Of a stretch of 64,000 nucleotides of DNA, positions 1 through 17,811 are shown one piece after another. The stretch comes from Kiritimatiellia bacterium (GTDB taxonomy: Bacteria > Verrucomicrobiota > Kiritimatiellia > RFP12 > UBA1067), in contig JAZQOS010000021.1 in the NCBI GenBank assembly GCA_045627925.1, positions 75,469 through 139,468 of the forward strand, written 5' to 3'. A program made the translations under genes and the position numbers. The notes beneath the pieces were generated by a model, which searched no databases, was not told the origin of the DNA, and worked only from the letters and a program-made list of their open reading frames with translations. Numbering within the stretch: the stretch's first letter is position 1; each line of letters starts with the position of its first letter.

Positions 1-3000
1 CCGTTCTCCCCTTCACCAGCGAGAATGAGCGTGACGTTAGCTGGGAAGTCCGTGAACTGGCTCATCCAGATTTCCGGCAATGTGTCATTCGGTTTCGTCG
101 CAACAAGACGCACTTCAACTGGCACGGGAACATACGGAACGAGCGACGTGCCATTCGCCGCCGTAAGCGTAATCGCACCTTCGCCGACCGTACCATTACC
201 GACGACTACCTGATCCGCCACCTCCATCGCCGCGACCGTCGCCTTGCGGTCCGCCGTTACGTAAAGTTCGCCCGCCTTATCGCCGATCTTCTGATCGAGA
301 ATCGTGCCCGCCGGAAGCGTCATCTCGACGGGACCCTTCAGCGTCCAACCCGAGACATCGAGCGTTTCCGCCGCCTCGTTGCGGATAACGACGGCCCTAA
401 GCGTCGCATCGTACTTGGCCGTAACCAACCCGCCAAATGCCACGAGTTCGCTCTGCTTGTCGGGGATGCCGGCGGAGAGGCGATTATTGTAACCGACGCC
501 CTTCTCCGTGTTGTGGATGGAGTGTGTCTCGAAAAGATGAACGCGACGCGGTTCGACATAATTGTTCCAAAGATCTTCAATGCCCATCGTCGGCGTCATC
601 GATGCGACATTCGGCCAGCAGTTCATTGAGTCGTTCTGGAAGTTGTAGATACCCGAAAGCGGCCACTTCTTGCGGTCCACTGCTGCGAGTTCAGCCGTCG
701 CGTTGGTAATCGTCGCGATGTAACCCCAAAGCTTCGAGTTCTCACGCGCCGTACCAGGCGCTTCGAGAATCTCATCCATCAGCGTACGGAGACGCCGGAG
801 ATAGAGACGACGGAACTTCGGGCTCTGATAAATGGACTCAAGTCCACCGTTTGACCCATAGCCCTGAACCGATCCGTCAAACGAATAGCTATGCGCCTGC
901 ACGCGACGTCCACCGTAGAACGGATGCGACTTGAAGAAATCCACATCCGCACGGATACCGTTCTTACCATCATGACAGAAGAACGCGCCGAAGGAGAGGT
1001 GGCAGTCGTATGCGAGCGGCATCCAGGTGCCGGTCCCGTTAACGTCATAGTAGAGCGAGATATTGGACCACGTATCGTCCGTCTCGGACGTGATGCGCGT
1101 CATCGCCATATAGTTGAGCCACGCTGGAAGATCGAAAATATTGACGACGTTCTGTGTATACTTCGCGTCTTCATTCTCCGCCGTCATTTGTTCGTCATTT
1201 CTATTCCCAGGAAGAGTATTCTCAAATGCCTTCTCGACTTCAATATCGCTCTCGTTCTCGTCGTCTGGTGTCTTCTTTTCGGTCGTAATGGACGAGTTAT
1301 GGCCGGGCTGGATGGTGCCGCAATTCTTGAACGCATAGCCGAGCGGATCAAGCCCATAAACATCTTCAATGAGTTCATCCGTGAAGCGGTTAGAGTTCCA
1401 AGCGAGCTGATAAAACTCGCCGTTCAGGTTGAGCTTCACCGGATAGTCATACGGCGCTTTTGCTCCCGCCTCACGGAAGAGCCAGAACGAAAGCGACTGA
1501 CGAATGTAGGCGGGGTCCATGTAGTCCGCAACGAACGAGGTCTTGCGGATTTCCTCGAACACCGTTCCTGTTACCGGATCCGTGCACGAAAGCGGCTGCG
1601 CCTTGGAGAACCTGAGACCGTGCGACTTCTTCGGGAAACGCGCCGTCGTGTTGCCTCTCAAATCGATGCGGACGTTGTCGTAGTAGAGTCCCGTCAGTGC
1701 ATCGTAGATGCCGACGCGCGCGTTGTAGGGAACGACCGACTTGTCCTGTTTATCGACATCGACATCCATCTGCTTAAGCGATGCGTCATCCGCGAAGAGA
1801 TAGAACGTCTGCACCTTCGCATCCGTCATACCCTCGGCTGGCTCGACAATCGTACCGTACCACTCGTAGCCGTCATCGGGATTTTGGAAACTTGGCGCAC
1901 GAAACTCGCGACCCGCCTTGTCGGTAATTGCGACGGCGAAGCGGACAAGCTCGCCAGCAGTAGTGAACGCCGCGCCAGGAATCGTTCCCGTATAAACCCA
2001 GCCGTTCATCTTATCCTTCGTCGCGCACTTCGTCATCGCCGTCTCGTTCGTCTGAACCAGCCCGAAGCCAATCTGATAGATAAGCTTGACCTCTGCGATT
2101 TGATCCTCGGCCGCCTCGCTCATATCGGCCGGAAGAATCGGCAGCGTCACCGTATAGTCCTCGCCGATCTTCGCCTGATTGAACGCCTGCCATGGATCGG
2201 GCGCGTCCTTAATGCCATAAAGCGGGCTGATCGTCGGGCGACGATCTGCCGCCGCATCGTAGATGACCTCGTCCGCGAGATCGACCGGCACGAGCACGGT
2301 CTGCTGAACGGCACCGGCCTTGTAGAGCCGAACCATTGGATACTTCTTCTGGTTGATCTTCTTTGCGTAGAGCGGCGTTGCTTCGGCAGGCAACACCTCA
2401 ACTGGCGACTCGCTCGTCCAAACCTTGAATGTTTCACCAACGCCAAGCGTGCCCACCGACAAGGTGAACGCCTCTTCCAGTTTCAGCTTCTTGCCTCGAT
2501 TCACGCAGTAGACCTTGTAATCCGAAAGTTCAAGCGGCTTTCCGCCCACATTCTCAAGGAGAATCCAACCGAGATCTTTCGCCTCGGGAACATTTGGCTG
2601 ACAACGCGCGCAAATCTTGGTGATTACCAGTTCACCCGGCGGCACGTCATCGATGTAAAGATCGTGGAATCCAGTCGCGAACTCTTCGCTCGGCGGCTCC
2701 GTCGTCGCCGTTGGCAGCTTGGCCGGATCAATACCCGGCGTAAAGAAGAAAAGCGATATCTTATCGACGTCCAGCTCAGGAATCTTCGCCCAAACGCGTG
2801 TATTAAACTTGCCCGCCTTGCCGTCCAGCTCAACGAATTTATCGCTCCAATCCGTTGCCAAAACTCCATCCGCCGTATAAGCGAGACCGCCTTCGTAGTG
2901 GAACGACGAATTCGGTCCGCCAATTGCGATTACGTTGCCGCCCTCGACGGTAATCGTGCGGCCAACGTTCACGTCAAGTCCAGTCGAGCCATTGTCATCG

Positions 3001-6000
3001 TCCTCAACCGCCGTCGTATAGGCAAGAATGTTTCCTCCCGTGATGATGATATCGCCATTCGAGTCGATAACATCGTTTCCAAGCGAAACGCCATAGAAGT
3101 TTCCGCCCGTGATAACGACATTGCGCGCCGTATTTACCGACTTAGGGTCGTTAACCGCGTCGTTACCCGCCGACTTCACGCAATCATCACCCGCGAGCAA
3201 GTTGAACGTGCCGCCGTTGATCGTGAGTGTCAAATCCTTCTCGCTGGGATCGTCCGTCGTCGTGAAGATCTGCGAACCCGCACCGGGAACGGAGATATCG
3301 AATGTTCCGCCGTTCACGGTAAGCATCTTTCCAGACTCAAAGACCGTCGCATCAATTGCGTCTTTACCGCCCTCAACGTTGCAGACATAGCCGTCCTCGA
3401 AGACGATTGTGCCGCCATTCAGGACCTTCGCGCCCGTACCCTCAATCGAAACATCCATCGTGCCGCCCGAAAGCGTGACCGCGTCCGAACCCTTAAACTT
3501 GAATGCGCTCGCCTTCTTACCACCAAGCGTCGCCGTAAACGCACCAGCTTCGAAGTCGGCGGACATCTTCTTGTTTATAAGTTCAATGCCGTAGGGCTGA
3601 TTGCCAGCTAAAGTCATATCGAGTTTGCCATCACCTGAAAGGCCGAAATTACCAGAGAGAGAAACCGCAGCAACCTTGTTGGTAGAATCTGGAACCGCGA
3701 CATCAATCGCAAACGTTCCCTTGGTGATATAAAGATCTTTCGCGGTAAAGAGCGGCTCGGTGATGTTCTCACCTGTAAGTTCAAAGCGTCCCTTGCCTAC
3801 AAAGGTAATCGACGCACCTGCACCCGAGACAAACGCAGCCGTATTGACCGAAGTCGATCCATCGTTCTTAATCGTATATTCGCCAGCGGGAAGTTCAAGT
3901 CCACCCAAGAAGTTCGCATTCGCAAAGTTGTAGGTATAGCCCGGCGCGAGCGTAATCTTCTCCGTCACATTCGTGTTCGCCCAATTGAGATCGACCGGCG
4001 GAGGTGGAGGCGGAGGTTCGTAACCCGGTGCTTCGGTAATGAGAATCGCATGCCACTCGTCCGTCTCAAGATTGTGGACGGCCATCTTGCCGCTCCCCTT
4101 CGCGCCGATGATCGCCACCTGATCAAGATTGCTGAAGTGCTCAATCTCGATGCCCTTCGCGTCGGTGAGGACGATTTCCTGGAAGCCGTCCGTAATCTTC
4201 GTCCACGGCACGTCCGCCTGATTAAAGCGCACCCAACCGCCCGCCTCAATAATCGTTCCCGCTGGAAGATCAAAACTGCAACGGCCCTCCGGCGTTGCAC
4301 CATACTTCTCAAACTGAATATGCGCACCGCTCGCATCAAGCGTAGCTTCTTGGTTGAGGTTCGTGAAGACGATGAATTCGTTTGCATCCGTTCCTTCCGC
4401 ACCGTCCGGCGCACCCGCGAAGCCCCAAAGCCGCAGATACTTCTCCTGCTCGCTCTTCTCCACGGCCAGAACATCAGTTCCGTCGGATGCCACCAGCCCA
4501 ATTTCCTCGGCGCCTCCCGCCGTACCGTTGGCAACAATCACCTGATCAAGAAGATTGTCGCCGAATGCCGCTATCGTCGCGCGACGATCCACCGCCACAT
4601 ACACCTCGCCCGGCACGCCGTCAACCGCCATATCAATTACCGTGCCTTCGGGAAGCGTCAGGTTGACCGGACCTGAAAGCTTCCAATTGGAAAGATCAAT
4701 CGCCTCGTCGTTCGCGCTGCGAATAACTACCGCGCCAAGCGTCTCATCGTATTCCGCGGAAAAGCCCGCCTTCAGCTCCTTAACCGCCGTCTGCGCCTCC
4801 GGGATGCCAGCAATCAACTTCTCGCCGTAGCCAATCTGTTCGGCGGCGTGTCCTTCGGCGGCGTGCGTTTCGTAGAGATGGACGCGGCGCGGGACAATGT
4901 AGTTATCCCAAATATCCGCCATCGCCTCCTCAATCGTCTTCGGATAATTATTGCCCCACACGTTGACATTGCTCGCACCGTTGCAATAACCCCACTGCGC
5001 ATGATCCTTTTCGGCCTCAACGCTCATCATTCCCGCCATCTTGCGCATCTGCACGAGGAAGTTGATGGTGCTCGTCTGCCAAGTCTCCTCGCCCGTCGTA
5101 TCGGGCGCGCCAAGCTCCTCATCCATCAGCGTTCTTACGCGCCGGAGGAAGAGGCGGCGGAATTTCTCGCTCTGGAAGATCGCCTCGTAGGCGCGGTTCT
5201 GATTGCCATACGCATCGCCTTTCTCACCCCTATGTGCGCGAACCACATAGCCACCATAAAACGGATGCGACTTAAACCAATCCTGATTGGACATAAGCCC
5301 ATAGAACGAACTATAGTCCGCATGATGCCACTGTCCGAAGGTAAGCTGCATATCGTAGGCGAGCGGACGCCAGGTACCCGTCGATCCCGACCGGATGCCG
5401 TCAATAAGCTGCGGATTGTCGTAGTAGCCCGAGAGGTTCGCCCACACATCATCGCACTCTTGGGTAATCTTGGTGAGCGCCATATAGTTAATCCAAGCGG
5501 GAAGATCCATCTTCTCAACCACGACCTTCGTATATTTCGCTTTATCTGCATCGCTGGTAACTATTGCCGTCGGCAAGGTACTGCAAAATGCGTTCAACAC
5601 CGAAAGGTCGGCCTCATTGCCATCATCCGGCGTCTTCTTCTCGATACCACCAGCCGTAGTACCATTGCCGAACGAGCCGATGTTCTTATAGCCGTAGCCG
5701 AGCGGATCAAGTCTGTAGCAATCCTCGATGAGCTCGTCGGTGAAGCGCTCGGAATGGAAGCCAAGCTGATAGAACTCGCCGTTCAGGTTGAGACGAGCCG
5801 GATAATGGAATGGCGCGGGACTGCCATGCTTGTTGAAAAGCCAAAACGCCGTCATCTGTCTGAGGAAGCTCGGATCGCCAAATTCCGCAATAAAGCTCGA
5901 CTTGCGAATCTCGCGCGTCTCGCCCGATACGCAATCAAACGTTGAAAGCGGATGCGTTTTGCCGAACCTCAAGCCGTGGCTCTTCTTATTGAAGCCCTTC

Positions 6001-9000
6001 GAGCTGTTGCCGCGCAAGTCAATGCGCACATTGTCGTAATACTGGCTCGTGGAGGAATCATAGATTACAATGCGTCCACCATAAGGATGGCGCGTGCGAA
6101 GGTCGTCATAGTTCTTATTGCTCATGAACTCGTCGTAGTCGATGTTCATCACCTTCATGTTGCGGTTTTGCGCATTCTTGTCGTCCGCCGTCTCCGCATC
6201 AGCGAAAAGATGGAAGGTGGTGAGCGTTTCCGAAAGCTGATCTTTCGTCGGCTCGACGATCGTTCCGTACCACTCGTAGCCATCGTCCGGTCCGAGGAAC
6301 TGCGGCGCATACCAAACATTGCCGGCCACATCAATGATCTTCGCCTTCCATTGGATGAGATGACCCGCCTCGGGGAAATCGGTGGAAGGAATCGCTACCG
6401 TCCACTGCTGACCATGTCCCGAAACGACCTCGCCCTTCGTCATCTCGACTTCTTTGCGCGTCGCATCGTCGAGATCCGTGCGATAGACGAGATAGACATC
6501 CTCAATCGCGTCCTTTTCACCTCCTCCATAGATCGGATTCACATCGAACGTCACCACATAATCTTCGCCCGGTATCGCCGGCTGGGCCGCATTGATGTCC
6601 GAGAAGATATGCTCCACGCCATAGAGCGGACCTACCTCTGGGCCAATTGCCGCCAACTTGGAGCCGACCTTAAGATAATGGCGCGTCGCTCCGCCCAGCA
6701 CCGTCTCGTCCAACGGCTCGACGATAATCGTCGCATCGTCCGGAGTATCACAGGGAATAACCACCGAACAAATCGTCTCGCCACCCTTCGCAAGCGTAAC
6801 CATCGGATACTTCTTTGGATTGACCTTCGCCGGATAGACGAGTACGCCTTTAATCTCCGCCGTCGCGTCTGCCGTCATCTTCGGCTCGGTGAACATAAGG
6901 TCATCACCTTCAACGTATCCTTCAGTCGTATAGAAGCGCACCTTGCCGCCAGGTGCCACCACGCGCGCCGGCAACGCAAGCAGCTTCTTAGCTTTCATCT
7001 CCTTGCCACGATTGAATCGTCCGAACGAGTATTCAGAGAGTTCCGCCCAGCCCGTTCCGATGTTGACCAGCTCCACCCAACCGGCTTCAACGCCGTTTGG
7101 ATCCTTCGCCGTCGGTTTAGGACAAATCTCGGCAATGGTCAGCGCTCCGCCTTCCATAAGCCGCGAAACGGTAATCGCGCCATCTTCGCCTTCGGCAAGC
7201 TCGACCGCATATTGCGTGAGATCAACTTCTTCGCTGTCCAAGATCAGCTTACCATTTATGTATGAAAGTCGCGTTGCATCGACAATCTTCAAAACCGCAC
7301 CATCCGCTTGAATATTCGCAAACGCCATTTTGAGCGTCGGATATGCCTTGTCGCCAATGGTGAGAAGCGTGTAAGTGTTGATGGCCTTGACCGAGGTTTC
7401 ATCGATCTGGATTTCCCAGTTTTCGTCCGTGCCGTCGACGAGTGCGAACTTCTCCGCCGTCACTGTAGTCTTTGCATTTAAAAGCGTAATCTCATTAGCT
7501 GCCGACTTTAACGCTTCACTAATGTCAAAGGTAATCTTCCCGCTCTTAATCGCGAAACCAGTCCCGCCGGAAATCGTCTCGCCATTCGGGCCAACTTTAA
7601 CCGTGAGATTGTTCGGGAGCGTTGTCCCGTTCCGAAGAACGATTGCGCCCTCTTGAATGTCGAGCGTACCGCCGCCCGTAAATGTCGCCTCGGCAATAAA
7701 GAACTTGCCCGCGCCGAGCTTGGTGAGCTTATTTCCGCCAAGCTTGAATTCCTGCGAACCATATTTGCTCGCAATCGTACCGAAATCGCTCTGTGCATCG
7801 ATGAACGAATCGGCGGCAACTTCCAGATTCCAAAATTGAGCCTTGCCGTCGCCAACGGCCGTACCATAATTGGCGAGCGTACCACCATTGAGGACAATTG
7901 GATATGTTATGTTCGGGACGCCATTCACGTCAAAGGTGCCGCCCTCATCGATAGAGAGCTCTGTCGTCACATTACCCGCACTGGCAATCTGCAAGACCGC
8001 GCCATTCTTGACGCGCAATGTCCCAACTGCTCGCGCGAGCATAACCGCGCAATCGCCATCAATTATGATCTCATCACCGCTTATGTACTTAACATCGTTA
8101 CCCTCGCCATCTTCAAACACCGTCGCACCATCGATCGTGCCATCCCCGCCCTTCCAATAGATTGTCGTCGGCTCACGCGTTGGTTCAGGCTCAACATATT
8201 TTTCTGCAACAATCTTATAGGCCGCTCTCCACGCCTCCGTTGAGGTATTGAGCGTAACATAACTATACTTTGGATCAGTCGTCTTGAAGAGGCGAATGCG
8301 AAGCGTGTCTCCTGCTCCGCTGCCCTGAACTGTTCCCATCGTCGCTAATTCGCCAACTGTGATGATTGCATCTTCAGAAAAAGTATATTCAATCTTATCA
8401 CCGAGCGACCACGCCTCAAGTTTCTGATTGTTGTTGTTACGACTATTAGATGAAACACTATTAAGTGTCACAAACTCGGCACTCTTGTTCCAAGTATTTC
8501 CTGATTCTTGTGCAAAGGTCACACTCTTGATGCGCAACTTAGTGCCAGCTGGTAAATCGCTCGAAGCTGGAATCGTCATTGACACTGGCTTGTAGTTGCC
8601 CACCCCTTTACTATCAATCGCCGTGCAGTCCGTATTCTCAAAAACATACTCACTTGGTCCCTCCGTGCCATCAACAATCACAATCGCCGCAATACATCCA
8701 CGATATCCTGCGTTGTTATTTCCATATCCCTTGACAGTGAGATTGCCGGAAAGTCCATTCACCCGCAAGGCATTTGTGCCGTAAGCTGCAGTTGACGATT
8801 GCGACGTTCCCCAAGTAGAATCCCCTTCGACCGTTTCGCCACTTGCATAAGTGTAGCGTTTCCCATTGATCTCTGGCGCACCAAACTTCTTATTTCCCGC
8901 GTCCGTCGCCGCGTAGAAGATGACGTCGTACTTGGCGAACGGAATATTGGAAACTGTTACCGCCGCTCCGTCATTGCTATCATCAAGATAACCATTCAAA

Positions 9001-10171
9001 ATCTTCGCCGTCATATCCTTATATGACCAGACATTCGCCGAGGTCCACTTGACGGTCGCCGCGCGAGAGGCATCAACTGTTTGCGATGCAACGTCGTAGA
9101 CATTCGCCGTTTCCGCTCCGTTTTTATCTTCTACCTGAAGCCACGCCGCTACCGGGATCGTATAATCCAATGCGCCAGAATCGCTTCCTGTAATTCGATT
9201 TTTTTCATCACCAGAATAAATAACTTGCCCTTGTTGATTAATCTGCTTTGCAGATGAATTAAAGTTAATCGCAATAATACCTTTAGCCGCAGAAGGGTCT
9301 ACTACTGGATCGCCTCCACCTTGGGCATTGCCCTCGACCCACTTGATGACGATTGCGCTACCACTGTCGGATACGCAATATGTTCCAATTGGATCGCTCG
9401 TACTGACATCAGCATTTGAGTCCTTGTGCGTCATTGCGGTTCCGTTGACATCGGTAGCAACTGTTGCATTCAGATAAAAACTTGCGCTCTTCCCTCCATA
9501 TGAAAGCAAGGTGCGCGAGGATACCTTTCGTGTCGTTGCTTTAGGATTCGACACGGAGACCTTTACACTTGAGAATCTAACGTTTATGGCGTTTCCAACC
9601 GAGCCATTGACTTTTATCGATCCCTTTTCACCCAAGTAGCATGTCCATTGATTATATTTTCCACTAGGCTGATTAAGGCTCGCGAAAACAATACCTTCTG
9701 GAGCGTCAACATGGAATTCCGTCGGACATTCCATTGATCCCGATCCCCATCCATTTACAATCAACTTTGAAGTATCATCAACATAAAATTGACAAACCGA
9801 TGCCTTGTCCTTCTGCAACCTAACCAATGTATCAATCGTGAGTTTTACGTGGTTCGCAATTCCAATTTGGGCATCCAGCCCTTCCATTTGCGAGAGCGAT
9901 ACACTTTTATAGCCATCGTTTCCCGCCGCTAACGCAATATTGTTTCCGTCCAGCAAACACGATTCATACGATGATTCATTCGTATACGGCGTAGCTTGAG
10001 GCGCCTTGGGATTCTTGTAATTCTCCCAATTGGAGTCTAACTCCCAACTTGCGCTGTGCGTACCGACAAATACATTTGTCCAATTGCGACCAAACGCACT
10101 CGCCGCATGCGCGACATTCCCACCGAGCGCCAGCGCGAGCGCGCCGACGAGAAGGTTCCGGAATATATTCA
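1..10171 (-). CDS. Giant secreted protein, C-terminus beyond the window (more than 3380 aa). Signal peptide, then repeated Cthe_2159-like beta-helix modules and two CotH (atypical kinase)-like domains; the distal ~3.6 kb is paralogous to the next gene
   Basis: ATG at 10171 preceded by GAGGAAGAG RBS, and a signal peptide MNIFRNLLVGALALALGG. Spot-translated segments give CotH-like motifs (RPLAYDMQLTFGQW, SHPFYGGYVVRAH) and beta-helix repeats (TINGGTFNLLAGDDCVKSAGND). No minus-strand stop-bounded ORF fragments appear in the six-frame track for 1-10170, consistent with one open frame that runs off the window edge. Plus-strand ORFs 891..3611 and 10966..12420 are mutually paralogous antisense shadows. 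Confidence 0.7.
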
Positions 10172-10182
10172 TCTCTTCCTCC

Positions 10183-13100
10183 TTACCTTACTAAAATCAT
10201 GGGTGCGTGCCGCATAATTGACATTCCACCCACTTTAAGCTCTGGCATTCCCTTACCCGCCGCGCCATTGCCGACGACGACTTGATCCGTTACCGTCATC
10301 GCCTCAATCGTCGCCTTGCGATCAGCCGTTATGTAAAGCTCGCCCTCGACTCCTTCAATCTTCTGGTCGAGAATCGTGCCCGCCGGAAGCGTCATCTCAA
10401 CTGGCCCGGTAAGTACCGCTCCCGAAAGATCGATGGTTTCCTCATTCGCGTTCTTAATAACCACCGCCTGAAGAAGACTATCATACGTAACGGTGATATT
10501 CTTCTTGAGTACCGACATATCACTTTGCTTGTCGGGGATGCCGGCGGAGAGACGATTGTTGTAGCCAACGCCCTTCGCAGTATTGTGAACAGAGTGTGTC
10601 TCGAAAAGATGAACGCGGCGCGGCACGATGTAGTTGTTCCAAAGATCGTCGATACCCATCGTCGGCGTCATCGACGCGACAGTCGGCCAGCAGTTCATCG
10701 ACTCATTTTGGAAGTTGAAACTCTTACCATCAAACGTACCTTCAAACGGCCACTTCGCGCGATCCGCCGCTGCGAGGTCTGCCGTCGCGTCGGTGATGAG
10801 TTTGATATACGCGCCGATCTTCGAGTCTTCCCGTGCCGTGCCGGGCGCTTCGAGAATCTCGTCCATGAGCGTACGGAGACGCCTGAGATATAGACGACGG
10901 AACTTCGGGCTCTGATAGATGGACTCAAGCCCGCTATTGCTCGCCGAGCCGCCGCCCATACCCATGTGTGCACCACCCCAGCCGCCTTCTTCCGTGCCCT
11001 TGTTGTGGGCCGGTACACGCCAACCACCGTAGAACGGATGGGACTTGAAGTAGTCCGCATCGGCTCTCACGCCCTCCTTCGCGTCATGGCAGAAGAATGC
11101 GCCAAACGAAAGGTGGCAGTCATAGGCGAGCGGCATCCACGTGCCCGTATTGTTGATATCGTAATAAAGCGAAATGTTCGCCCACGTATCGTCCGTCTCG
11201 GACGTAATGCGCGTCATCGCCATATAGTTGAGCCACGCCGGAAGATCGAAGGTCTTAACGACGACCTCGTTGTACGTCGCGTTATTCTCACCATCATCGA
11301 TCATCGTCTCATAGTTCGCACGGTCAGGCAGGGAGTTCTCAAACTCATACAACTTGGCGAGCGCAACATCTCCAACTTCGACGCCATCATCCGGCGTCTT
11401 CTTCTCCGTCGTAATCGACGAGCGATGTCCCGGCTGAATCGTGCCGCAATTCTTAAATCCATAGCCGAGCGGATCGAGTCCGTACACGTCTTCGATAAGT
11501 TCATCCGTGAAGCGGTTCGAGTTCCAAGCGAGCTGATAGAACTCGCCGTTCAGATTGAGCTTCACCGGATAGTCATACGGCGCTTTTGCCCCCGCCTCGC
11601 GGAACACCCAGAAGGAGAGCGACTGACGAATGTACGCGGGGTCCATGTAGTCCGCAACGAACGAGGTCTTGCGGATTTCTTCAAACACCGTTCCCGTGAC
11701 CGGATCGGTGCACGAAAGCGGCTGCGCCTTCGAGAACCTGAGCCCGTGCGCCTTCTTCGGGAAGCGTGCCGTCGTGTTGCCGCGAAGGTCGATGCGGACG
11801 TTGTCGTAGTAGAGTCCCGTCAGTGCATCGTAGATGCCGACGCGGGCATTGTAAGGAACGACCGACTTGTTCTGGCTATCGACATCCTTGTCCATCTCGC
11901 CAAGCGACGCGTTATCCGCGAAAAGATAGAACGTCTGCACCTTCGCATCCGTCATGCCCTCGGCTGGCTCGACAATCGTACCGTACCATTCGTAGCCATC
12001 ATCCTTATTTTGGAAGCTTGGCGCACGGAAAGTGCGACCGTCATTGTCGGTAATCGCGACCGCGAAGCGAACAAGCTCGCCAGCAGTAGTGAACGCCGAG
12101 CCGGGGATCGTTCCCGTGTAAACCCAGCCGTTCATCTTATCCTTCTCCGCGCTCTTCGTCATTGCCGTCTCATTCGTCTGAACCAGCCCGAAGCCAATCT
12201 GATAGATAAGATGCGCCTCTGCGATTTGATCCTCGGCCGCCTCGCTCATATCGGCAGGAAGAATCGGCAGCGTCACCGTATAGTTCTCGCCGATCTTCGC
12301 CTGATCAAACGCCTGCCACGGATCGGGCGCGTCCTTTACGCCGTAAAGCGGGCTGATCGTCGGACGACGATCGGTCGCCACATTATGAACAGCTTCATCC
12401 GCGAGATCAACCGGCACTAATACCGTCTGCGTGACCGTACCCCCTTTATAAAGCTGAATCATCGGATACTTCTTCTGATTGATCTTCTTTGCGTAGAGCG
12501 GCGTAGCATCGTCCGGCAGCGCCTCGACGGGCGACTCGCTCGTCCAAACCTTGAACGTTTCTCCAACCTCAAGCGTACCCACCGGCAAAATAAACGCTTC
12601 CGAAACTTTTAGGCTCTTACCGCGATTCGTACAAAGAATCTTGTGCTCCGAAAGTTCAAGTGGGGCGTTTCCGACATTTTCCATCACAATCCAACCAAGA
12701 TCTTTCGCCTCGGGAACATTTGGCTGGCAACGTGCGCAAACCTTGGTGATAACCAATTTTCCCGCCTCAACAGGAATGTCGAGATAGAGATCGTGAAAGT
12801 CCGTGGCATATTCGGAGCTTGGCGCTGTAGAGGAAATCGTCGGAAGAGTAGATTTATCAATCCCGCGAGTATAGGCAAAAAGCGAAATCGTCTCGGCATC
12901 AAGCGCAGGGAGTTTCGCCCAGACATGCGTTTCTATGTCATTCATACTTCCGGTAATACCCAAAAACCGCTCGCTGTAAGTTGCCGCGCTCAGCTTCTCT
13001 GTGGTATAAGCATCGCTTTCACTATAGAAGCTGGAATTAGGTCCGCCGATGGCAATTACGTTGCCGCCGGTAATCGTAATTGCATATCCCTCATTCACAT

Positions 13101-14187
13101 CAAGACCAGTCGAACCATTGCCATCGTCCTCTACCGCCGTCGTATAGGCAAGGATATTGCCGCCCGTGATGATAATATTACCATTCGAGTCGATAACGTC
13201 GTTACCGAGCGAGACACCGTAGAAGTTACCGCCAGAGATGACGACATTGCGCGCCGTATTCTCCGATTCAGGATTGGTAGCCGCGTCATTACCCGCCGAC
13301 TTGACGCAATCGTCACCCGCGAGCAAGTTGAAGGTTCCACCGTTGATCGTCAAGGTCAAATCTTTCTCAGTATGATCGTCCGCAGTCGTGAAGATCTGTG
13401 AACCCGCACCGGGGACGGAAATATCAAACACTCCGCCATTTACGGTAAGCGTCTTACCGGCTTCGAAGACCGTTGCGTCGATTGCGTCTTTATCGCCTTC
13501 GATGTTGCAAACATAGCCATCCTCGAACACGATGGTGCCGCCATTCAGCACTTTCGCGCCCGTCCCTTCAATCGCAACCTCCATCGTGCCACCCGAAAGC
13601 GTGACCGCGTCCGATCCCTTGAACTTGAACGCCGACGCATCCGTGCCGCCCAGCGTCGCCGTGAAGGTTCCGCCCGCGAAGTCTGCTTTCATCTTCTTAT
13701 TAGTCAATTCAATGCCATACGGCTGCGTGCCAGCAAGCGACATCGTGAGCGTGCCCTCGCCCGAAAGCCCGAAGTTGCCTGAAAGCGAAACCGCCGCGGC
13801 CTTCTCAATCGCGCTCGATACATTAATCGCGAAAGTGCCCTTGGTGATATAGAGATCTTGAGCTGTGAAAATCGGTTCGGTTATATCTGCTCCTGTAATC
13901 TCGAACTTACCCTTGCCAATGAAAGTGATGCTTGCGCCAGCCGCCGAGACGAACGCTGCCGTATTAACAGAATCCTTGCCGTCGTTCTTAATTATGTATT
14001 CGCCAGCAGAAAGCTCCAAACCACCCTTGAAGTTCGCATTAGCGAAGTTATTGGTGACGAGCGGGCCTGGCATGAGCGTCTGTTTCTCAGCATAATCACC
14101 AGCCCAATTTATTTCTTCTGCCCAAACAACACTCGCGCCAAGCGTCAGCGCAACTGCGCCCACGAAGAATTTATGTAATGTATTCAT
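10183..14187 (-). CDS. Secreted 1334-aa protein: Cthe_2159-like beta-helix (carbohydrate-binding) domain plus CotH kinase-like domain; C-terminal tail HAPMILVR
   Basis: ATG with AAAGGAAAACA RBS and a signal peptide. Motifs TINGGTFNLLAGDDCVKSAGNDA and ITGGNILAYTTAVEDDGNGSTGLDVN are Cthe_2159-like. PLAYDCHLSFGAFFCHD, NLNGEFYQLAWNSNRFTDELIED and SHPFYGGWRVPAH are CotH-like. 11-nt gap to the downstream gene. Confidence 0.75.
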   Translation of the reverse strand: MNTLHKFFVGAVALTLGASVVWAEEINWAGDYAEKQTLMPGPLVTNNFANANFKGGLELSAGEYIIKNDGKDSVNTAAFVSAAGASITFIGKGKFEITGADITEPIFTAQDLYITKGTFAINVSSAIEKAAAVSLSGNFGLSGEGTLTMSLAGTQPYGIELTNKKMKADFAGGTFTATLGGTDASAFKFKGSDAVTLSGGTMEVAIEGTGAKVLNGGTIVFEDGYVCNIEGDKDAIDATVFEAGKTLTVNGGVFDISVPGAGSQIFTTADDHTEKDLTLTINGGTFNLLAGDDCVKSAGNDAATNPESENTARNVVISGGNFYGVSLGNDVIDSNGNIIITGGNILAYTTAVEDDGNGSTGLDVNEGYAITITGGNVIAIGGPNSSFYSESDAYTTEKLSAATYSERFLGITGSMNDIETHVWAKLPALDAETISLFAYTRGIDKSTLPTISSTAPSSEYATDFHDLYLDIPVEAGKLVITKVCARCQPNVPEAKDLGWIVMENVGNAPLELSEHKILCTNRGKSLKVSEAFILPVGTLEVGETFKVWTSESPVEALPDDATPLYAKKINQKKYPMIQLYKGGTVTQTVLVPVDLADEAVHNVATDRRPTISPLYGVKDAPDPWQAFDQAKIGENYTVTLPILPADMSEAAEDQIAEAHLIYQIGFGLVQTNETAMTKSAEKDKMNGWVYTGTIPGSAFTTAGELVRFAVAITDNDGRTFRAPSFQNKDDGYEWYGTIVEPAEGMTDAKVQTFYLFADNASLGEMDKDVDSQNKSVVPYNARVGIYDALTGLYYDNVRIDLRGNTTARFPKKAHGLRFSKAQPLSCTDPVTGTVFEEIRKTSFVADYMDPAYIRQSLSFWVFREAGAKAPYDYPVKLNLNGEFYQLAWNSNRFTDELIEDVYGLDPLGYGFKNCGTIQPGHRSSITTEKKTPDDGVEVGDVALAKLYEFENSLPDRANYETMIDDGENNATYNEVVVKTFDLPAWLNYMAMTRITSETDDTWANISLYYDINNTGTWMPLAYDCHLSFGAFFCHDAKEGVRADADYFKSHPFYGGWRVPAHNKGTEEGGWGGAHMGMGGGSASNSGLESIYQSPKFRRLYLRRLRTLMDEILEAPGTAREDSKIGAYIKLITDATADLAAADRAKWPFEGTFDGKSFNFQNESMNCWPTVASMTPTMGIDDLWNNYIVPRRVHLFETHSVHNTAKGVGYNNRLSAGIPDKQSDMSVLKKNITVTYDSLLQAVVIKNANEETIDLSGAVLTGPVEMTLPAGTILDQKIEGVEGELYITADRKATIEAMTVTDQVVVGNGAAGKGMPELKVGGMSIMRHAPMILVR

Positions 14188-14209
14188 TGTTTTCCTTTCA
14201 TTTAAATCG

Positions 14210-17200
14210 TTACTGCACGAAGAAGAGGAGCCCTGGTTTGAACACCTTGATCGTCTTCGCGCCGGTATCGAAAAGCACCTTGGTCTTGTACGCCTTGTCG
14301 CCGAGGTAAATCGTGCGCTTCACCTTTCCGTTCGGCGCGGACAATGTTCCGCCACAGAGCTTCCGTCCAGTCTCCCACTCGGTCGCCACAAGCCGCAAAA
14401 TCCCATCATCCGAAGTAACATCAAGCCCGACTGCGCTCGGCAAGCCCGTATCCTTGTTAATCGTCAAATCCTTAGCCACAACCACCCCATTGCCTTCCGA
14501 AGCGACATCTCCCGCCGGACTGTACACGAAATTATCCGCAATAAGTTTCGTATTACTGTTGCCAAAATTAAATGTCGTCCCGAAGAACATCACATTCTTT
14601 GCCGTGGAATCGCCCCCCGCGACATGCAAAGTGTCGGAAATTGCAACCATTTCGTTTCCGACAAGCGTGGCGCTATTAAGATTAACGGTTGCGAGTTCGC
14701 CGTCATACACCAACGTTCCGCCCATCAATTGCCAAGTCGGAATATCCGTAAGCTTGCCATCGCTCGCCTCCAAAATTCCCGCGCCATATTTGGTAACTTG
14801 ATTGCCACTATGATCAGAGCCAAGCGCCGTGTCCAAAATTAAGCGCGAATTGGCACCAACGTAAAAAGACATATTCGGCGTACCTTCGCCATTAACATAC
14901 AATCCTCCCGTTCCAAGCTGCTTAATGATTGCCGGCTTATCTGTCATATCGCTTACATTATCTGGAACATAAAATTGAGCTGTAGCGCCGCTACCAGTTC
15001 CACCATTAACTCGAAAATTCGTTCCATTATCGTTAATCGCCAAAGTCGCCCCCGGCTCCAAATAAATCTGTTGAGCCCAATAACAGGTTCCATTAGTTGG
15101 AATAATCTCCGCTGTCGCACCCTCATCAACTCGAATAATGCCATTGGCATTCGACCCTCCCGAAACCCAACCACACAGGTCTTTTACATTAAAAGTCAAA
15201 TACGCGCCACCAGCAACCCGAATTGTTGGATTATCTGCAGTCGCATTTAATCCAAATTTACCGCCAGAATTATTTGCGTCATGCCAACGAGCTTTTATAG
15301 CATGCTTACCGCCATCAAAAACAATATGTGTGGCAAAAGCAATGTTTAACACGGTGGTATCATAGTCTATCGTAACCCCGTTTTCACCTGCGCCCTTGAA
15401 CACGAAGCGCAACTTGTTTCCGGCACTCTTAATTGCATTCCGCAATTCCTCCGTCGCCGCATAGCCACTCTTGACGTTGAACTCGAGCACTATCGACCCG
15501 GAAAGCTGAACGCCCTTGAACAACGAAATCGCATCGGCGAGCCGTTCCTTGCTACTCGAAACAATCACAACATCGCCTTCGCCCTTAAAATAAATGACAT
15601 CGCATTCCGGAAGCTTGTCCAAGGTCAACGTCGGATTTCCCTCGACATTGATCTGCGCCGAGGTTCCCTCGCCCGGCTCTTCGCGTCCAGCCCAAAGTTG
15701 CGACCAGGTCTTGTCTTCTCGCAATGTAGCTTCGGTTTTGGACGACGAGCGATCAATGATCTGCATCGCCGCAATACCCGAAGTACGGGCCCAATAGTGA
15801 ATCTCGAACGTTCCCGTGCAATTTTCGATCCTAACCGCATTGACGCCATAGGCGGCGGTCGCCTGACAACGTTTACCCCACATGCTTGATAGCGTAATGA
15901 CGTCGCTCGCCTTAACTTCCTCCGACGCGGAAAGACCGGTATCGACGGAAAGCACCCCCGTTTCGTCCGGCTTGTAATAATGCTGGGAATTGTATTTGGA
16001 ATTGCCGCTTGTAACGCGAATCGGATCGAACCCGGTTGGCGTTTGGCCTTCAACGGTAGGCGTACCATAATCGCCGGTCGTCTGCTTGGTTCCGCCTTGA
16101 AAGTAAAGAATTACCTCGTAATTGTCATAGGGAATATTCTCCACTTTGAACGATCCTGGAATGCACGAGCGGTCGCGATTCGAAGCCCAGCAAGTCATAT
16201 ACGCACAGGCCGGGTCCGCCATCGCTGGCGTATCGCCACGATCCCAATACGCCCAATTCAATCCAGCTTGGGAATAAACCGTAATGCTAATCGGATCCCC
16301 CAAAGTAACCGTGGACTCGTCAAGTAAGCTATATGCCGTCGTTGAACTGGCGGTAGCCGTTCCGGAAGAGGGTTGGCCAACGGTTATCCAGCCATCCTCC
16401 GGAATCTGAACCGAATCCGAAGCCAAGGTGGTTTGCGCTTGGGTAATCGCCGTCCCGTCTTGAAAAACATTGATATTGATCACCTGATCGGTACGCTTCG
16501 GTGGTTCGGGAAATTTATAGGACAAAAGTTCATCATCGGTTTCGTTTCCGGCAAATATCGCCACCTTTGAAATTTGCATTCCGTCCATCAACATCGACCC
16601 ATTATGCCAAAACCCGCCAATGTTAATGCGTTTTACGTCCATCGACGCCTTAAGGTCAGAGTCGGCGGTGAAGATTTTCGTTCCATCGACATACATGTAA
16701 ACACCGGAATTCGCCCCAGGCTTAAACCGCACAACCACACGATGTGTTTCCAACAAATCCGGAAATTGCTGCTGTAGCACTGGTTCATTAGCTCTCTTGC
16801 CTCCGTCCCACACACCAAACGGCAAAGATCCATCTAACATTACACCCATCATATCAGAATTTTTATAACCATTGAGTTTTTCAGCCCATCCTGCATCCTC
16901 TGGTCCTTCTTGTCTTCCGAAATCCACTAATACGCCAGTTTCTGATATTCCATTAATCTCTACTATCGCCGAAACATACGTCTCGGTCACTGCCGGAATG
17001 TGGTAAATCGATAATGGTTTACTATCAACCATGACATACGAACCATCGTGCGCAACGTAGCAGCCCTCGGTGTTGAGAGTCCAACCATTTTGAATGACAA
17101 TGTTGGGATCGTCAAAATCTCCGCTCCACACCGCCACCGGATCCGCCGCCGCCAGTGCGATATTGGCGGCAAGCGCCGACACTCCCACAATCGCCACGCT

Positions 17201-17233
17201 GAGCGCAGCGCGAATATAACTGTGCTTTTTCAT
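14210..17233 (-). CDS. Secreted ~1007-aa protein with an N-terminal LamG/concanavalin-like domain followed by beta-helix-like repeats; first gene of the operon
   Basis: ATG at 17233 (the ORF track starts at the TTG at 17236). Signal peptide MKKHSYIRAALSVAIVGVSALAANIALA. LamG-like stretch HRVVVRFKPGANSGVYMYVDGTKIF. 22-nt gap to the next gene. Confidence 0.65.
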   Translation of the reverse strand: MKKHSYIRAALSVAIVGVSALAANIALAAADPVAVWSGDFDDPNIVIQNGWTLNTEGCYVAHDGSYVMVDSKPLSIYHIPAVTETYVSAIVEINGISETGVLVDFGRQEGPEDAGWAEKLNGYKNSDMMGVMLDGSLPFGVWDGGKRANEPVLQQQFPDLLETHRVVVRFKPGANSGVYMYVDGTKIFTADSDLKASMDVKRINIGGFWHNGSMLMDGMQISKVAIFAGNETDDELLSYKFPEPPKRTDQVININVFQDGTAITQAQTTLASDSVQIPEDGWITVGQPSSGTATASSTTAYSLLDESTVTLGDPISITVYSQAGLNWAYWDRGDTPAMADPACAYMTCWASNRDRSCIPGSFKVENIPYDNYEVILYFQGGTKQTTGDYGTPTVEGQTPTGFDPIRVTSGNSKYNSQHYYKPDETGVLSVDTGLSASEEVKASDVITLSSMWGKRCQATAAYGVNAVRIENCTGTFEIHYWARTSGIAAMQIIDRSSSKTEATLREDKTWSQLWAGREEPGEGTSAQINVEGNPTLTLDKLPECDVIYFKGEGDVVIVSSSKERLADAISLFKGVQLSGSIVLEFNVKSGYAATEELRNAIKSAGNKLRFVFKGAGENGVTIDYDTTVLNIAFATHIVFDGGKHAIKARWHDANNSGGKFGLNATADNPTIRVAGGAYLTFNVKDLCGWVSGGSNANGIIRVDEGATAEIIPTNGTCYWAQQIYLEPGATLAINDNGTNFRVNGGTGSGATAQFYVPDNVSDMTDKPAIIKQLGTGGLYVNGEGTPNMSFYVGANSRLILDTALGSDHSGNQVTKYGAGILEASDGKLTDIPTWQLMGGTLVYDGELATVNLNSATLVGNEMVAISDTLHVAGGDSTAKNVMFFGTTFNFGNSNTKLIADNFVYSPAGDVASEGNGVVVAKDLTINKDTGLPSAVGLDVTSDDGILRLVATEWETGRKLCGGTLSAPNGKVKRTIYLGDKAYKTKVLFDTGAKTIKVFKPGLLFFVQ

Positions 17234-17261
17234 CAAAATAACCCTTCCCTAGGTAAACGAA

Positions 17262-17270
17262 ATTATATCA
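17262..17270 (-). promoter_or_regulatory. Extended -10 box (TGATATAAT) for the three-gene giant-protein operon, ~30 nt upstream of the start codon
   Basis: Reverse complement reads GAGTGATATAATTTCG, followed by GGGAAGGG RBS and the ATG. Confidence 0.45.
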
Positions 17271-17321
17271 CTCAATTGTGGAAAAATCAAGCGAGAACGT
17301 CACTGGTGACAAGGGCGAATC

Positions 17322-17467
17322 TCCATACATGGACATGTAAATCTCCAAGTATGGAGATCGCAATGTCCATACATGGACATGGTAGGTGTCCATACATGGA
17401 GATCGGCGTGTCCATACATGGACATGCACCCTCTCCATACATGGAGATTAATGTCTCCATATATGGA
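17322..17467. repeat. Array of seven tandem 22-23-bp repeats with palindromic core TCCAT-NN-ATGGA (copy 1), immediately upstream of the operon promoter
   Basis: Cores at 17322, 17344, 17366, 17389, 17411, 17434 and 17456 (TCCATACATGGA x5, TCCAAGTATGGA, TCCATATATGGA). Period 22/23 bp, about two helical turns. Confidence 0.85.
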
Positions 17468-17578
17468 CATGACCGACTGCTAGGGCGGACGTTTGCAAAC
17501 GCTCGTTGATAGCCCAAAAGCACTATAAGTGCGACAATATGTCACACCTTAGTCGTTCTCACCTTTGAGCGTAACTTA

Positions 17579-17652
17579 TGGTTGCCTCGCAGGGACTCGA
17601 ACCCCAACAAGCAGAATCAGAATCTGCGGTGCTACCATTACACCACGAGGCA
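17579..17652 (-). tRNA. tRNA-Gln (anticodon CTG)
   Basis: Reverse complement folds as a cloverleaf: acceptor TGCCTCG/CGAGGCA, anticodon stem GCAGA/TCTGC with loop TTCTGAT, T-loop GGTTCGAGTCC, CCA encoded. Confidence 0.75.
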
Positions 17653-17673
17653 ATCGCAGCATTCTTTCCGTAC

Positions 17674-17751
17674 TGGCGGGGTCGACGGGGCTCGAACCCG
17701 CAACCCCCGGATCGACAGTCCAGTGCGCTAACCAATTGCGCCACAACCCCG
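17674..17751 (-). tRNA. tRNA-Asp (anticodon GTC)
   Basis: Reverse complement GGGGTTGTGGCGCAATTGGTTAGCGCACTGGACTGTCGATCCGG...GGTTCGAGCCCCGTCGACCCCGCCA; anticodon loop CTGTCGA. Confidence 0.75.
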
Positions 17752-17769
17752 TGTTCCGAAAAGTGACGC

Positions 17770-17780: not shown

Positions 17781-17811
17781 CAAATCGCACTCCCCGCGCA
17801 AGTGGGTATTT

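What the first reader, a model, noticed from the sequence alone, without database searches (positions are those of the whole stretch)
1..17233. Operon of three giant secreted proteins combining Cthe_2159-like beta-helix and CotH kinase-like modules, with an internal module duplication
Genes C (LamG plus beta-helix), B (Cthe_2159-like plus CotH) and A (over 3380 aa) are co-oriented with 22- and 11-nt gaps. Gene A contains two B-like modules; its distal 3.6 kb even reproduces the antisense ORF seen opposite gene B. CotH domains are atypical protein kinases, best known from Bacillus spore coats. Here the CotH-like domain is fused to carbohydrate-binding beta-helix modules on exported proteins exceeding 1300 aa, which suggests extracellular kinase or adhesin functions. 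The WDxDxSFG-like motif (PLAYDCHLSFG, PLAYDMQLTFG) is retained in all three CotH copies.
Basis: partly seen in the sequence, partly recalled or inferred. Interest (0 to 1): 0.6.

Follow-up and report, generated by a model that had tools for sequence, protein, structure and literature searches.

The report
Giant secreted CotH-kinase protein operon
A gut bacterium of the class Kiritimatiellia carries a three-gene operon for very large exported proteins that join sugar-binding modules to three intact copies of a CotH-type kinase domain, a kind of extracellular protein seen before (for example in cellulosomes) whose function is still unknown.

Summary
Three co-oriented minus-strand genes lie 22 and 10 nt apart: C (1007 aa), B (1334 aa) and A (at least 3390 aa, open, running off the window start). 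B residues 25-1313 recur in A 2061-3332 at 77% identity, and B 473-1311 recur in A 1006-1886 at 40%.

- **CotH:** confirmed by Pfam, by an AlphaFold model that matches B. cereus CotH, and by a conserved Asp/Asn/Asp catalytic set in all three copies.
- **Cthe_2159 beta-helix:** supported only by remote homology.
- **LamG in C:** supported only at fold level.
the lamin-tail domains that flank every CotH.
- **Antisense ORFs:** a codon-usage by-product.

Both duplicates are under purifying selection (dN/dS 0.17). Relatives are all animal-gut Kiritimatiellia. One has 93% identical flanks, a strongly diverged C N-terminus and a B/A fusion gene; another lacks B.

The proteins belong to a known but uncharacterised kind, exported CotH/LTD proteins. 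This is an unusual giant variant with several CotH domains and beta-helices. Kinase versus adhesin cannot be settled here.

New extras:
- A 163-bp inserted array of seven palindromic operators sits upstream of the operon and recurs upstream of another giant gene.
- All four complete giant proteins share a C-terminal motif.

The parts
14210..17233 (-). Gene C, 1007 aa: signal peptide, variable lectin-like N-terminus, variable middle domain, conserved beta-rich module, conserved tail ending KPGLLFFVQ
   Evidence: ORF. The identical protein P0008 starts at the ATG. No Pfam, NCBIfam, PHROGs or PADLOC hit.
16514..17146 (-). C residues ~30-240: ConA-like lectin / LamG-like jelly roll, hypervariable between relatives
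   Evidence: Laminin_G_3 E 0.041, 14.5 bits. AF2 pLDDT 50-70. Foldseek top hits are lectin domains of T. rangeli sialidase, BoNT Hc and Emp46/47, E ~1e-5. Identity to relatives is 20-50% here against 70-95% at the C-terminus.
14534..15736 (-). C residues ~500-900: conserved beta-rich solenoid-like module of unknown family, with invariant His/His/Arg/Arg/Gln/Lys columns
   Evidence: AF2 pLDDT mostly 75-95 with short repeated strands. This is the only part shared with most of the 73 related clusters. Invariant columns. No PDB relative by profile. The module is also embedded in giant P0117 at 2692-3012.
10183..14187 (-). Gene B, 1334 aa: signal peptide, Cthe_2159-like beta-helix, LTD, beta-sandwich, CotH, LTD; ends HAPMILVR
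   Evidence: Identical to NCBI protein P0001, whose precomputed Pfam list is PF14262, PF08757 and PF00932.
12778..14115 (-). B residues 25-470: Cthe_2159-related beta-helix module
   Evidence: BLASTP to PF14262-bearing proteins P0004-P0007. Profile A2 hits PDB 4peu/4phb at E 5.6e-7. 5 of 7 alignment members hit Pfam Cthe_2159, but the two window copies do not.
10588..11940 (-). B residues ~750-1200: CotH kinase-like domain. D999, N1004 and D1023 are the catalytic set; F911 and Y1022 are the adenine-sandwich aromatics.
   Evidence: Pfam CotH 70.5 bits. AF2 pLDDT 84, pTM 0.86. Foldseek 5jd9/5jda E 4e-14, TMt 0.68. Residue mapping and PMC12189002.
1..10172 (-). Gene A, at least 3390 aa, truncated by the window edge: signal peptide, ~980-aa N-terminal region, LTD-CotH1-LTD-LTD, poly-Pro linker, then a complete B-like module
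   Evidence: Open frame of 3390 codons. CotH x2 and LTD x6. The 4325-aa orthologue P0117 shows what probably follows.
4515..7157 (-). A residues 1006-1886: LTD-sandwich-CotH1-LTD module, 40% identical to B 473-1311
177..3992 (-). A residues 2061-3332: beta-helix-LTD-CotH2-LTD module, 77% identical to B 25-1313, preceded by PPPPPPP (A 2053-2059)
   Evidence: dN/dS 0.17 and dS 0.88. The LTD-CotH2-LTD part (A 2508-3346) is absent at this place in orthologue P0117.
17262..17290 (-). Sigma-70-like promoter TTGATT-17-(TG)TATAAT, 29 nt upstream of the C start codon; conserved in two relatives
   Evidence: Best site in the scan, 10 of 12 with an extended -10. The same boxes occur in L026 and L025.
17311..17473 (.). 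163-bp array of seven 12-bp palindromes TCCATRYATGGA spaced 22-23 bp apart, directly upstream of the -35 box; an insertion relative to the closest relative
   Evidence: 11 sites in the window against 0.21 expected. Absent from L026, which is otherwise 91-94% identical on both sides; flanked by GTC on both sides.
17579..17750 (-). tRNA-Gln(CTG) and tRNA-Asp(GTC) immediately upstream; they mark the conserved chromosomal site of the operon
   Evidence: The same arrangement is present in L026.

Best explanation
This is a chromosomal three-gene operon of an animal-gut Kiritimatiellia bacterium. It is driven by one sigma-70-type promoter and encodes Sec-exported, surface-attached or released mosaic proteins.

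Proposed mechanism:
- Glycan-binding modules hold the proteins on a polysaccharide. These modules are a variable ConA-like lectin domain at the tip of C and Cthe_2159-type beta-helices in B and A. The target is most likely plant cell-wall pectin or cellulose, or a surface glycan.
- LTD-flanked CotH domains with an intact catalytic Asp/Asn/Asp set bind nucleotide. They phosphorylate a nearby protein or glycan substrate.

Evolution: the three CotH modules arose by module duplication and shuffling. B is a separately expressed paralogue of the distal module of A.

Shown: gene structure, export signals, domain identities, conservation of the catalytic residues, purifying selection, lineage restriction and mosaic evolution.

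Inferred: surface location, glycan target, actual phosphotransfer and co-transcription.
For: Operon layout: gaps of 22 and 10 nt, a Shine-Dalgarno sequence (AAGGAGG) before A, and a single strong promoter-like site upstream of C that is conserved in relatives.

Export: all three products start with n-h-c type signal peptides ending AHA/A, VWA/E and ALA/A.

CotH identity:
- Pfam 156.6 and 70.5 bits.
- Profile hit to 5jd9.
- The AF2 model (pLDDT 84) matches 5jd9/5jda at E 4e-14, TMt 0.68.
- The residues equivalent to PKA D166/N171/D184 (B D999, N1004, D1023) are present in all three copies and in 39-42 of 43 homologues. The adenine-sandwich positions stay aromatic (PMC12189002).

Glycan-binding modules: the beta-helix module is linked to Cthe_2159, which binds cellulose and polygalacturonate (10.1101/401869). 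C has a lectin-like N-terminus.

Selection: dN/dS between B and distal A is 0.17.

Distribution: the 24 related loci found in species-representative genomes are nearly all labelled Kiritimatiellae or Verrucomicrobia, plus one Lentisphaeraceae and four unclassified MAGs; many come from rumen, colon, caecum or faeces.

Surface-protein signature: C's N-terminal two thirds are far more diverged than the 93% identical flanks, as expected for an exposed ligand-binding tip.

Precedent: extracellular CotH proteins exist in bacterial and fungal cellulosomes (PMC6083626, PMC12484212, PMC12774918).
Against: - No activity, location or expression data exist.
- ATP is scarce outside the cytoplasm, so a kinase role for an exported protein is unexpected (also noted for cellulosomal CotH in PMC12774918).
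- This subfamily replaces the second Asp of the WDxD motif with His, Gln or Asn. It also lacks the Lys or His that precedes the catalytic-loop Asn in other CotH proteins, so metal binding or chemistry may differ.
- The window copies of the beta-helix and the lectin-like domain fall below Pfam thresholds.
- The C model is poor overall (pLDDT 56).
- No dockerin, anchor domain or known sorting signal was found.
Confidence: 0.5

Rival explanations
1. The proteins are non-catalytic adhesins or structural scaffolds. The CotH and LTD modules act only as binding or spacer domains, as Mucorales CotH invasins bind host GRP78 and as cellulosomal CseP is thought to be structural. The giant proteins mediate attachment to plant particles, mucus or other cells.
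For: Giant size, repeated beta-sandwich and beta-helix modules, and a hypervariable N-terminal lectin-like tip in C. Weak matches to the Pectate_lyase_5 'adhesive domain'. Lack of ATP outside the cell. The WDxD second Asp is substituted. A structural role has been proposed for cellulosomal CotH (PMC12484212).
Against: The catalytic Asp/Asn/Asp set and the adenine-contacting aromatic positions are kept in all three copies and in nearly all of 43 homologues, at only 21-51% overall identity. That conservation is hard to explain without a nucleotide-dependent function. dN/dS of 0.17 includes the CotH core, where identity reaches 97%.
Confidence: 0.3
2. The CotH modules are glycan kinases rather than protein kinases, analogous to the xylose kinase Fam20B among the Fam20 relatives of CotH. 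They phosphorylate the polysaccharide to which the beta-helix and lectin modules bind.
For: CotH is distantly related to Fam20 secretory-pathway kinases (PMC7821199, PMC12189002). Here it is obligatorily fused to carbohydrate-binding-type modules. The catalytic loop and metal site are altered in a subfamily-specific way. No Ser/Lys/Arg-rich repeat substrate like CotB or CotG is encoded in the operon.
Against: No CotH-family member is known to phosphorylate sugars. There is no direct evidence here. The same ATP-supply problem applies.
Confidence: 0.12
3. The beta-helix modules (Cthe_2159-like in B and A, and the conserved module in C) are the active parts, acting as polysaccharide lyases or hydrolases. 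CotH and LTD are accessory.
For: Cthe_2159 resembles PL9 pectate lyases structurally (10.1101/401869). The C module has invariant His, Arg, Gln and Lys columns across relatives only 26-37% identical.
Against: No CAZy-type or lyase Pfam family is hit. From my own knowledge, Cthe_2159 itself was reported to bind but not cleave polysaccharide. The C module has no PDB relative.
Confidence: 0.08

Closest known systems
Cellulosomal CotH proteins of Clostridium thermocellum and relatives (CseP/Cthe_0044; Cthe_0239 = LTD-LTD-Fn3-CotH-dockerin; Ccel_1101) and of anaerobic gut fungi
   Same: Exported CotH domain combined with LTD and other beta-sandwich modules. Found in plant-fibre-degrading gut or anaerobic organisms. 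Function undefined, with structural or kinase roles proposed (PMC6083626, PMC12484212, PMC12774918).
   Different: No dockerin. The host is a diderm PVC-group bacterium. The proteins carry two or more CotH domains per polypeptide and reach at least 3390 aa. They are fused to Cthe_2159-like beta-helices. The subfamily motif is YDx[HQN] instead of WDxD.
Bacillus spore-coat kinase CotH (PDB 5jd9/5jda)
   Same: Same fold (Foldseek E 4e-14, TMt 0.68). The Asp/Asn/Asp catalytic set and the aromatic adenine sandwich are conserved (PMC12189002).
   Different: Only 16% identity. The Bacillus enzyme is a ~360-aa single-domain protein that acts in the mother cell on CotB and CotG (PMC7821199). Here the domain sits in exported giant multidomain proteins of a lineage with no sporulation context or CotB/CotG-like substrates in the operon.
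Cthe_2159 beta-helix carbohydrate-binding family (PF14262; PDB 4peu/4phb)
   Same: The profile of the B/A module and its homologues hits 4peu/4phb at E 5.6e-7. Five of seven homologues hit PF14262. The family binds cellulose and polygalacturonate (10.1101/401869).
   Different: The two window copies themselves are below detection by the Pfam model. Here the module is fused to LTD-CotH. Among the proteins retrieved, that combination was seen only in P0001-P0003.
Mucorales CotH invasins (CotH3)
   Same: CotH-family proteins exposed on a cell surface and used for host interaction (PMC9973265).
   Different: Eukaryotic, small and single-domain, acting as ligands for host GRP78. No LTD or beta-helix.

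Membership tests
CotH kinase family (PF08757) | Match to the family HMM above the gathering score | tested here: met
   A 156.6 bits (two stretches) and B 70.5 bits, cut-off 23.8.
CotH kinase family (PF08757) | Atypical kinase fold as in B. cereus CotH | tested here: met
   AF2 model of B 471-1334 has pLDDT 84. Its top PDB matches are 5jd9/5jda at E 4e-14, TMt 0.68-0.69.
CotH kinase family (PF08757) | Catalytic residues equivalent to PKA D166, N171 and D184, plus the aromatic adenine sandwich | tested here: met
   B D999, N1004 and D1023 and their equivalents occur in both A copies. F/Y and Y replace Tyr142 and Trp245. The second Asp of WDxD is His or Gln (residue roles from PMC12189002).
CotH kinase family (PF08757) | ATP-dependent phosphorylation of a substrate | not testable with these tools
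   Needs biochemistry.
Spore-coat CotH system (CotH with CotB/CotG substrates) | Sporulation context and Ser/Lys/Arg-repeat substrates encoded nearby | tested here: not met
   Neighbours are housekeeping, tRNA and defence genes. No SKR-repeat protein is present. All relatives are Kiritimatiellia.
Cthe_2159 (PF14262) | Match to the family HMM | tested here: inconclusive
   No hit for the window copies at E<=10. However, the precomputed Pfam list for the identical protein includes PF14262, and homologues reach E 3.8e-15.
Cthe_2159 (PF14262) | Homology to the solved Cthe_2159 beta-helix | tested here: met
   Profile A2 against PDB hits 4peu/4phb at E 5.6e-7, 32 bits, two stretches.
Cthe_2159 (PF14262) | Binding of cellulose or polygalacturonate | not testable with these tools
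   Needs binding assays.
Lamin tail domain (PF00932) | Match to the family HMM | tested here: met
   A scores 87.9 bits (cut-off 34.3) with six stretches. B scores 31.0 bits, just below the cut-off, but is 40% identical to the A module.
LamG / ConA-like lectin (PF13385) in gene C | Match to the family HMM | tested here: not met
   14.5 bits, E 0.041, cut-off 27.6.
LamG / ConA-like lectin (PF13385) in gene C | Jelly-roll lectin fold | tested here: inconclusive
   Foldseek top 50 hits are ConA-like lectin domains at E ~1e-5, TMt ~0.5. The model has only pLDDT 50-70 in that region.
Operon | Co-orientation, short gaps and a single upstream promoter | tested here: met
   Gaps of 22 and 10 nt. The best promoter-like site is upstream of C. 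Some weaker promoter- and terminator-like consensus matches lie inside the genes, at about the rate expected from shuffles.
Operon | Co-transcription | not testable with these tools
   Needs RNA data.

The most novel reading that the evidence does not exclude
The operon encodes extracellular multi-kinase machines. Each polypeptide carries several CotH domains, with an altered metal site (YDx[H/Q/N]), tethered by beta-helix and lectin modules. They phosphorylate a polysaccharide or glycoprotein in the gut lumen or on the cell surface, which would be a glycan-directed activity new for the CotH family. They would be exported or anchored through a so-far undescribed short C-terminal signal ([KA]P-x-hydrophobic-V-[RQ]-COOH). 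They would be co-regulated with other giant LamG proteins by a recently inserted array of seven operators.
Probability: 0.1. Interest if true: 0.8.

Novelty: new variant of a known kind. Interest (0 to 1): 0.4.

Why it matters
Exported CotH proteins are abundant in cellulosomes of bacteria and anaerobic fungi, and they occur widely in genomes, yet no function is known for any of them. A kinase outside the cell is a standing puzzle.

This locus offers a useful natural experiment. It has three diverged but catalytically intact CotH copies, each bracketed by LTDs and tied to glycan-binding modules. One copy is a stand-alone 1334-aa gene (B) that is tractable for expression.

The mosaic evolution and the inserted operator array also show how gut Kiritimatiellia diversify and rewire their giant surface proteins.

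The finding does not by itself reveal a new mechanism.

Tried and rejected
- Direct phmmer of B and C against PDB sequences found nothing. Profiles were needed.
- NCBIfam, PADLOC and PHROGs gave nothing for A, B or C. There is therefore no known sorting domain, defence role or phage origin.
- Pseudogene or decaying duplicate was rejected: the reading frames are open and dN/dS is 0.17.
- A functional antisense gene was rejected. The ORFs lie in the codon-aligned antisense frame and are of the length expected from codon usage.
- Exact-protein look-ups of the window's own B and C returned no contig record, and cluster look-up gave no names. The organism is therefore inferred from relatives only.
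- A local HMM built from three LTD copies did not recover the C-terminal LTDs.
- A profile of the conserved C module found no PDB relative. It does not detect A 670-935.
- The palindrome is absent from the first 25 related loci. A metagenome scan for two palindromes 22 bp apart gave only six unrelated contigs.
- The primary CotH structure paper (Nguyen et al. 2016) is not held. Residue roles were taken from PMC12189002 and PMC7821199.
Full report
**1. Gene structure**

All three genes lie on the minus strand.
- Gene C is 14210..17236. The ATG at 17233 gives the 1007-aa product that NCBI also holds (P0008).
- Gene B is 10183..14187 (1334 aa, identical to P0001).
- Gene A starts at 10172 and stays open for 3390 codons until the window ends.
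- The gaps are 22 nt (C-B) and 10 nt (B-A). A strong Shine-Dalgarno sequence (AAGGAGG) precedes A.
- Each product begins with a typical Sec signal peptide.
- The best promoter-like site in 9900-18700 is TTGATT-17-TGnTATAAT at 17290-17262, just upstream of C. Its boxes are conserved in two relatives.
- Co-transcription is inferred, not shown.

**2. Duplication**

B 25-1313 matches A 2061-3332 at 77% identity. B 473-1311 matches A 1006-1886 at 40%.

A codon alignment of B with distal A gives dS 0.88, dN 0.15 and dN/dS 0.17. The duplication is therefore old and both copies are constrained. A stretch at B 628-928 has much lower synonymous divergence (pS 0.19-0.41), which suggests gene conversion.

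They sit in the codon-aligned antisense frame, where stops arise only from rare TTA, CTA and TCA codons. Shuffling codon order gives mean longest open runs of 413-489 codons. They are a by-product and not an independent signal.

**3. CotH domains**

- Pfam: CotH scores 156.6 bits in A (two stretches) and 70.5 bits in B. LTD is found in six stretches in A and two in B.
- Sequence profile: a profile of the CotH modules hits B. cereus CotH 5jd9.
- Structure: an AlphaFold model of B 471-1334, built on 43 sequences, has pLDDT 84 and pTM 0.86. It resolves LTD, a second beta-sandwich, CotH and a C-terminal LTD. Its top PDB matches are 5jd9/5jda at E 4e-14, TMt 0.68.
- Active site: according to PMC12189002, CotH keeps equivalents of PKA D166, N171 and D184 and sandwiches adenine between Tyr142 and Trp245. 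In the alignments these correspond to B D999, N1004, D1023, F911 and Y1022. The three catalytic residues are present in all three window copies and in 39-42 of 43 homologues. The two sandwich positions stay aromatic.
- Subfamily differences: the Kiritimatiellia subfamily has YDx[H/Q/N] where other CotH proteins have WDxD, and Ala or Ser where many have Lys or His before the catalytic-loop Asn.

**4. The other domains**

Cthe_2159 beta-helix (B 25-470 and A 2061-2505):
- hmmscan does not hit PF14262 for these copies, even at E<=10.
- The precomputed Pfam list for the identical protein does contain PF14262.
- BLAST-level homologues P0004-P0007 carry it.
- The profile of the module hits the solved Cthe_2159 structures 4peu/4phb at E 5.6e-7.
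- The call is right as remote homology.

Gene C:
- It has no Pfam hit. Laminin_G_3 reaches only 14.5 bits.
- Its model is weak overall (pLDDT 56).
- The N-terminal ~210 residues give ConA-like lectin domains as top PDB matches.
- Residues ~500-870 are predicted with high confidence as a beta-rich solenoid-like module.
- That module is the only part shared with most relatives. There are 73 clusters among 1.84 billion representatives.
- It has invariant His, His, Arg, Arg, Gln and Lys columns and no PDB relative.

**5. Relatives and evolution**

A scan of species-representative genomes with the CotH profile found 24 loci at 42-52% identity. Nearly all are labelled Kiritimatiellae or Verrucomicrobia (one Lentisphaeraceae, four unclassified). 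Many come from rumen, colon, caecum or faeces. NCBI names such proteins 'CotH kinase family protein' or 'lamin tail domain-containing protein'.

Contig JAZRWB010000054 (L018/L026):
- It is syntenic and 93.3% identical over 8.9 kb of housekeeping flank.
- Its C homologue is only 49% identical. The N-terminal two thirds are not alignable at the DNA level, while the C-terminal third is about 80% identical at the DNA level.
- Its next gene fuses a B-like signal peptide to A ~508-1952. This is most simply a deletion from a C-B-A ancestor.

Contig JAZRVL010000017 (L025):
- C (66% identical) is followed after 22 nt by a 4325-aa giant, P0117, and there is no B.
- P0117 matches A 1-2507. It then skips A 2508-3346 and continues with an A 3347-3390-like linker, a C-like module and another LTD-CotH block.
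- A therefore probably extends about 1500 residues beyond the window.
- The LTD-CotH2-LTD block shared by B and distal A was added in the window's lineage.

Beta-helix identities are 79.6% for distal A against P0117, 75.2% for B against distal A, and 72.9% for B against P0117. These fit an old duplication. The whole family evolves by module shuffling (L017, L003, P0002, P0003).

**6. Function**

Known extracellular CotH proteins are cellulosome components of C. thermocellum (CseP; Cthe_0239 = LTD-LTD-Fn3-CotH), R. cellulolyticum and anaerobic fungi. Their function is undefined, and structural or kinase roles have been proposed (PMC6083626, PMC12484212, PMC12774918). Cthe_2159 binds cellulose and polygalacturonate (10.1101/401869).

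The best reading is glycan-tethered, exported CotH phosphotransferases, with a protein or glycan substrate. I put my confidence at about 0.5. The main rival is a purely adhesive or structural role (0.3). Conservation of the catalytic set argues for catalysis. The extracellular ATP problem and the altered metal-site residue argue for caution.

**7. Other things seen**

Operator array:
- A 163-bp array of seven TCCATRYATGGA palindromes at 22-23 bp spacing (17311-17473) lies directly upstream of the -35 box.
- It is an insertion relative to L026 and is flanked by GTC on both sides.
- A similar seven-unit array lies at about 57630-57790, upstream of the 3099-aa LamG gene.
- There are 11 sites within one mismatch in the window against 0.21 expected.

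C-terminal motif:
- B, C and the two other giant proteins all end in [KA]P-x(1-2)-hydrophobic run-V-[RQ].
- Upstream partner genes in relatives end in TM[IL][LF][VI]W.

Defence-gene insertion:
- An AAA_14/DUF4143 gene (18621-19892; PADLOC PDC-S01, E 1e-58) lies in a second insertion (18565-20250) relative to L026.

**8. Verdict**

This is an unusual giant variant, with several CotH domains and beta-helices, of the known but uncharacterised class of exported CotH/LTD proteins. Interest is moderate.

Noticed in passing
window 17311-17473 and ~57630-57790: There are two arrays of seven 12-bp palindromes TCCATRYATGGA (core of ATGTCCATATATGGACAT) at 22-23 bp spacing. One is directly upstream of the C promoter. 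The other is ~240 bp upstream of the 3099-aa LamG gene. The window holds 11 sites within one mismatch against 0.21 expected. The first array is a 163-bp insertion, flanked by GTC on both sides, relative to a relative that is 91-94% identical on both sides. This is probably a cooperative operator array that defines a small regulon; the regulator is unknown.
   Followed up: partly
window 10183-10209, 14210-14239, 48094-48120, 57906-57932 (C-termini of B, C and the two other giant proteins): All four complete giant exported proteins end with a short motif: HAPMILVR, KPGLLFFVQ, APRIIVR and KPITILVR. Only one of the other 264 six-frame ORFs of at least 80 aa ends in the loose hydrophobic-V-[RKQ] pattern, and none matches the strict motif. 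The last ~40 residues of the C family are almost invariant. No NCBIfam sorting-domain model matches. This may be an undescribed export or anchoring signal.
   Followed up: partly
window 18565-20250 (gene 18621..19892) and 41359..42702: Two AAA_14/DUF4143 ATPase genes are present. The first matches the PADLOC candidate defence family PDC-S01 (E 1.4e-58) and is an insertion relative to the syntenic relative L026.
   Followed up: partly
window 15247-17144 versus L026 10090-11765: The N-terminal two thirds of gene C have no DNA-level similarity to the orthologous gene of a relative whose flanks are 93% identical. Protein identity by 100-residue block is 20-40% at the N-terminus and 80-95% at the C-terminus. 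This is cassette-like hypervariability of the lectin-like tip.
   Followed up: partly
L026 12824-17212 (= L018 7523-11932): In the closest relative, the gene after C is a chimera: a B-type signal peptide (88% identical over 26 residues) joined to A ~508-1952. This implies a deletion between B and A in that lineage.
   Followed up: partly
window 14534-15736 (C residues ~500-900); P0117 2692-3012: This is a conserved ~350-residue beta-rich module with motifs THxVFxGGxH, NPT, GW, IRVxDG, YWxQxxYLEPGA, FRxNGG and QIYVP. It has no Pfam or PDB relative. It is found in only 73 clusters of 1.84 billion, always in proteins of roughly 1000-4300 aa. In P0117 and L017 it sits directly before an LTD-CotH block.
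   Followed up: partly
window 48094..57393 and 57906..63899 (minus strand): Two further giant genes (3099 and 1997 aa) are 40% identical paralogues over ~2000 residues. They carry Laminin_G_3 domains and show no similarity to A, B or C.
   Followed up: partly
window ~42000-58000: A lower-GC stretch (43-49% against 55-61%) holds a GmrSD/HNH endonuclease, an EcoRI-type adenine methylase, a peptidase C25 homologue and one giant gene. It is possibly an acquired island.
   Followed up: no
window 11400-12300 versus 1400-2300 (B 628-928 / A 2665-2965): Synonymous divergence between B and distal A drops to pS 0.19-0.41 here, against 0.5-0.7 elsewhere. This suggests gene conversion between the paralogues across the sandwich and N-terminal CotH region.
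   Followed up: no
L028 99-132, L030 10523-10556: In unrelated metagenome contigs, a pair of TCCATRYATGGA palindromes 22 bp apart sits between a TTGAC box and a start codon. The motif may be the operator of a widespread repressor family.
   Followed up: no
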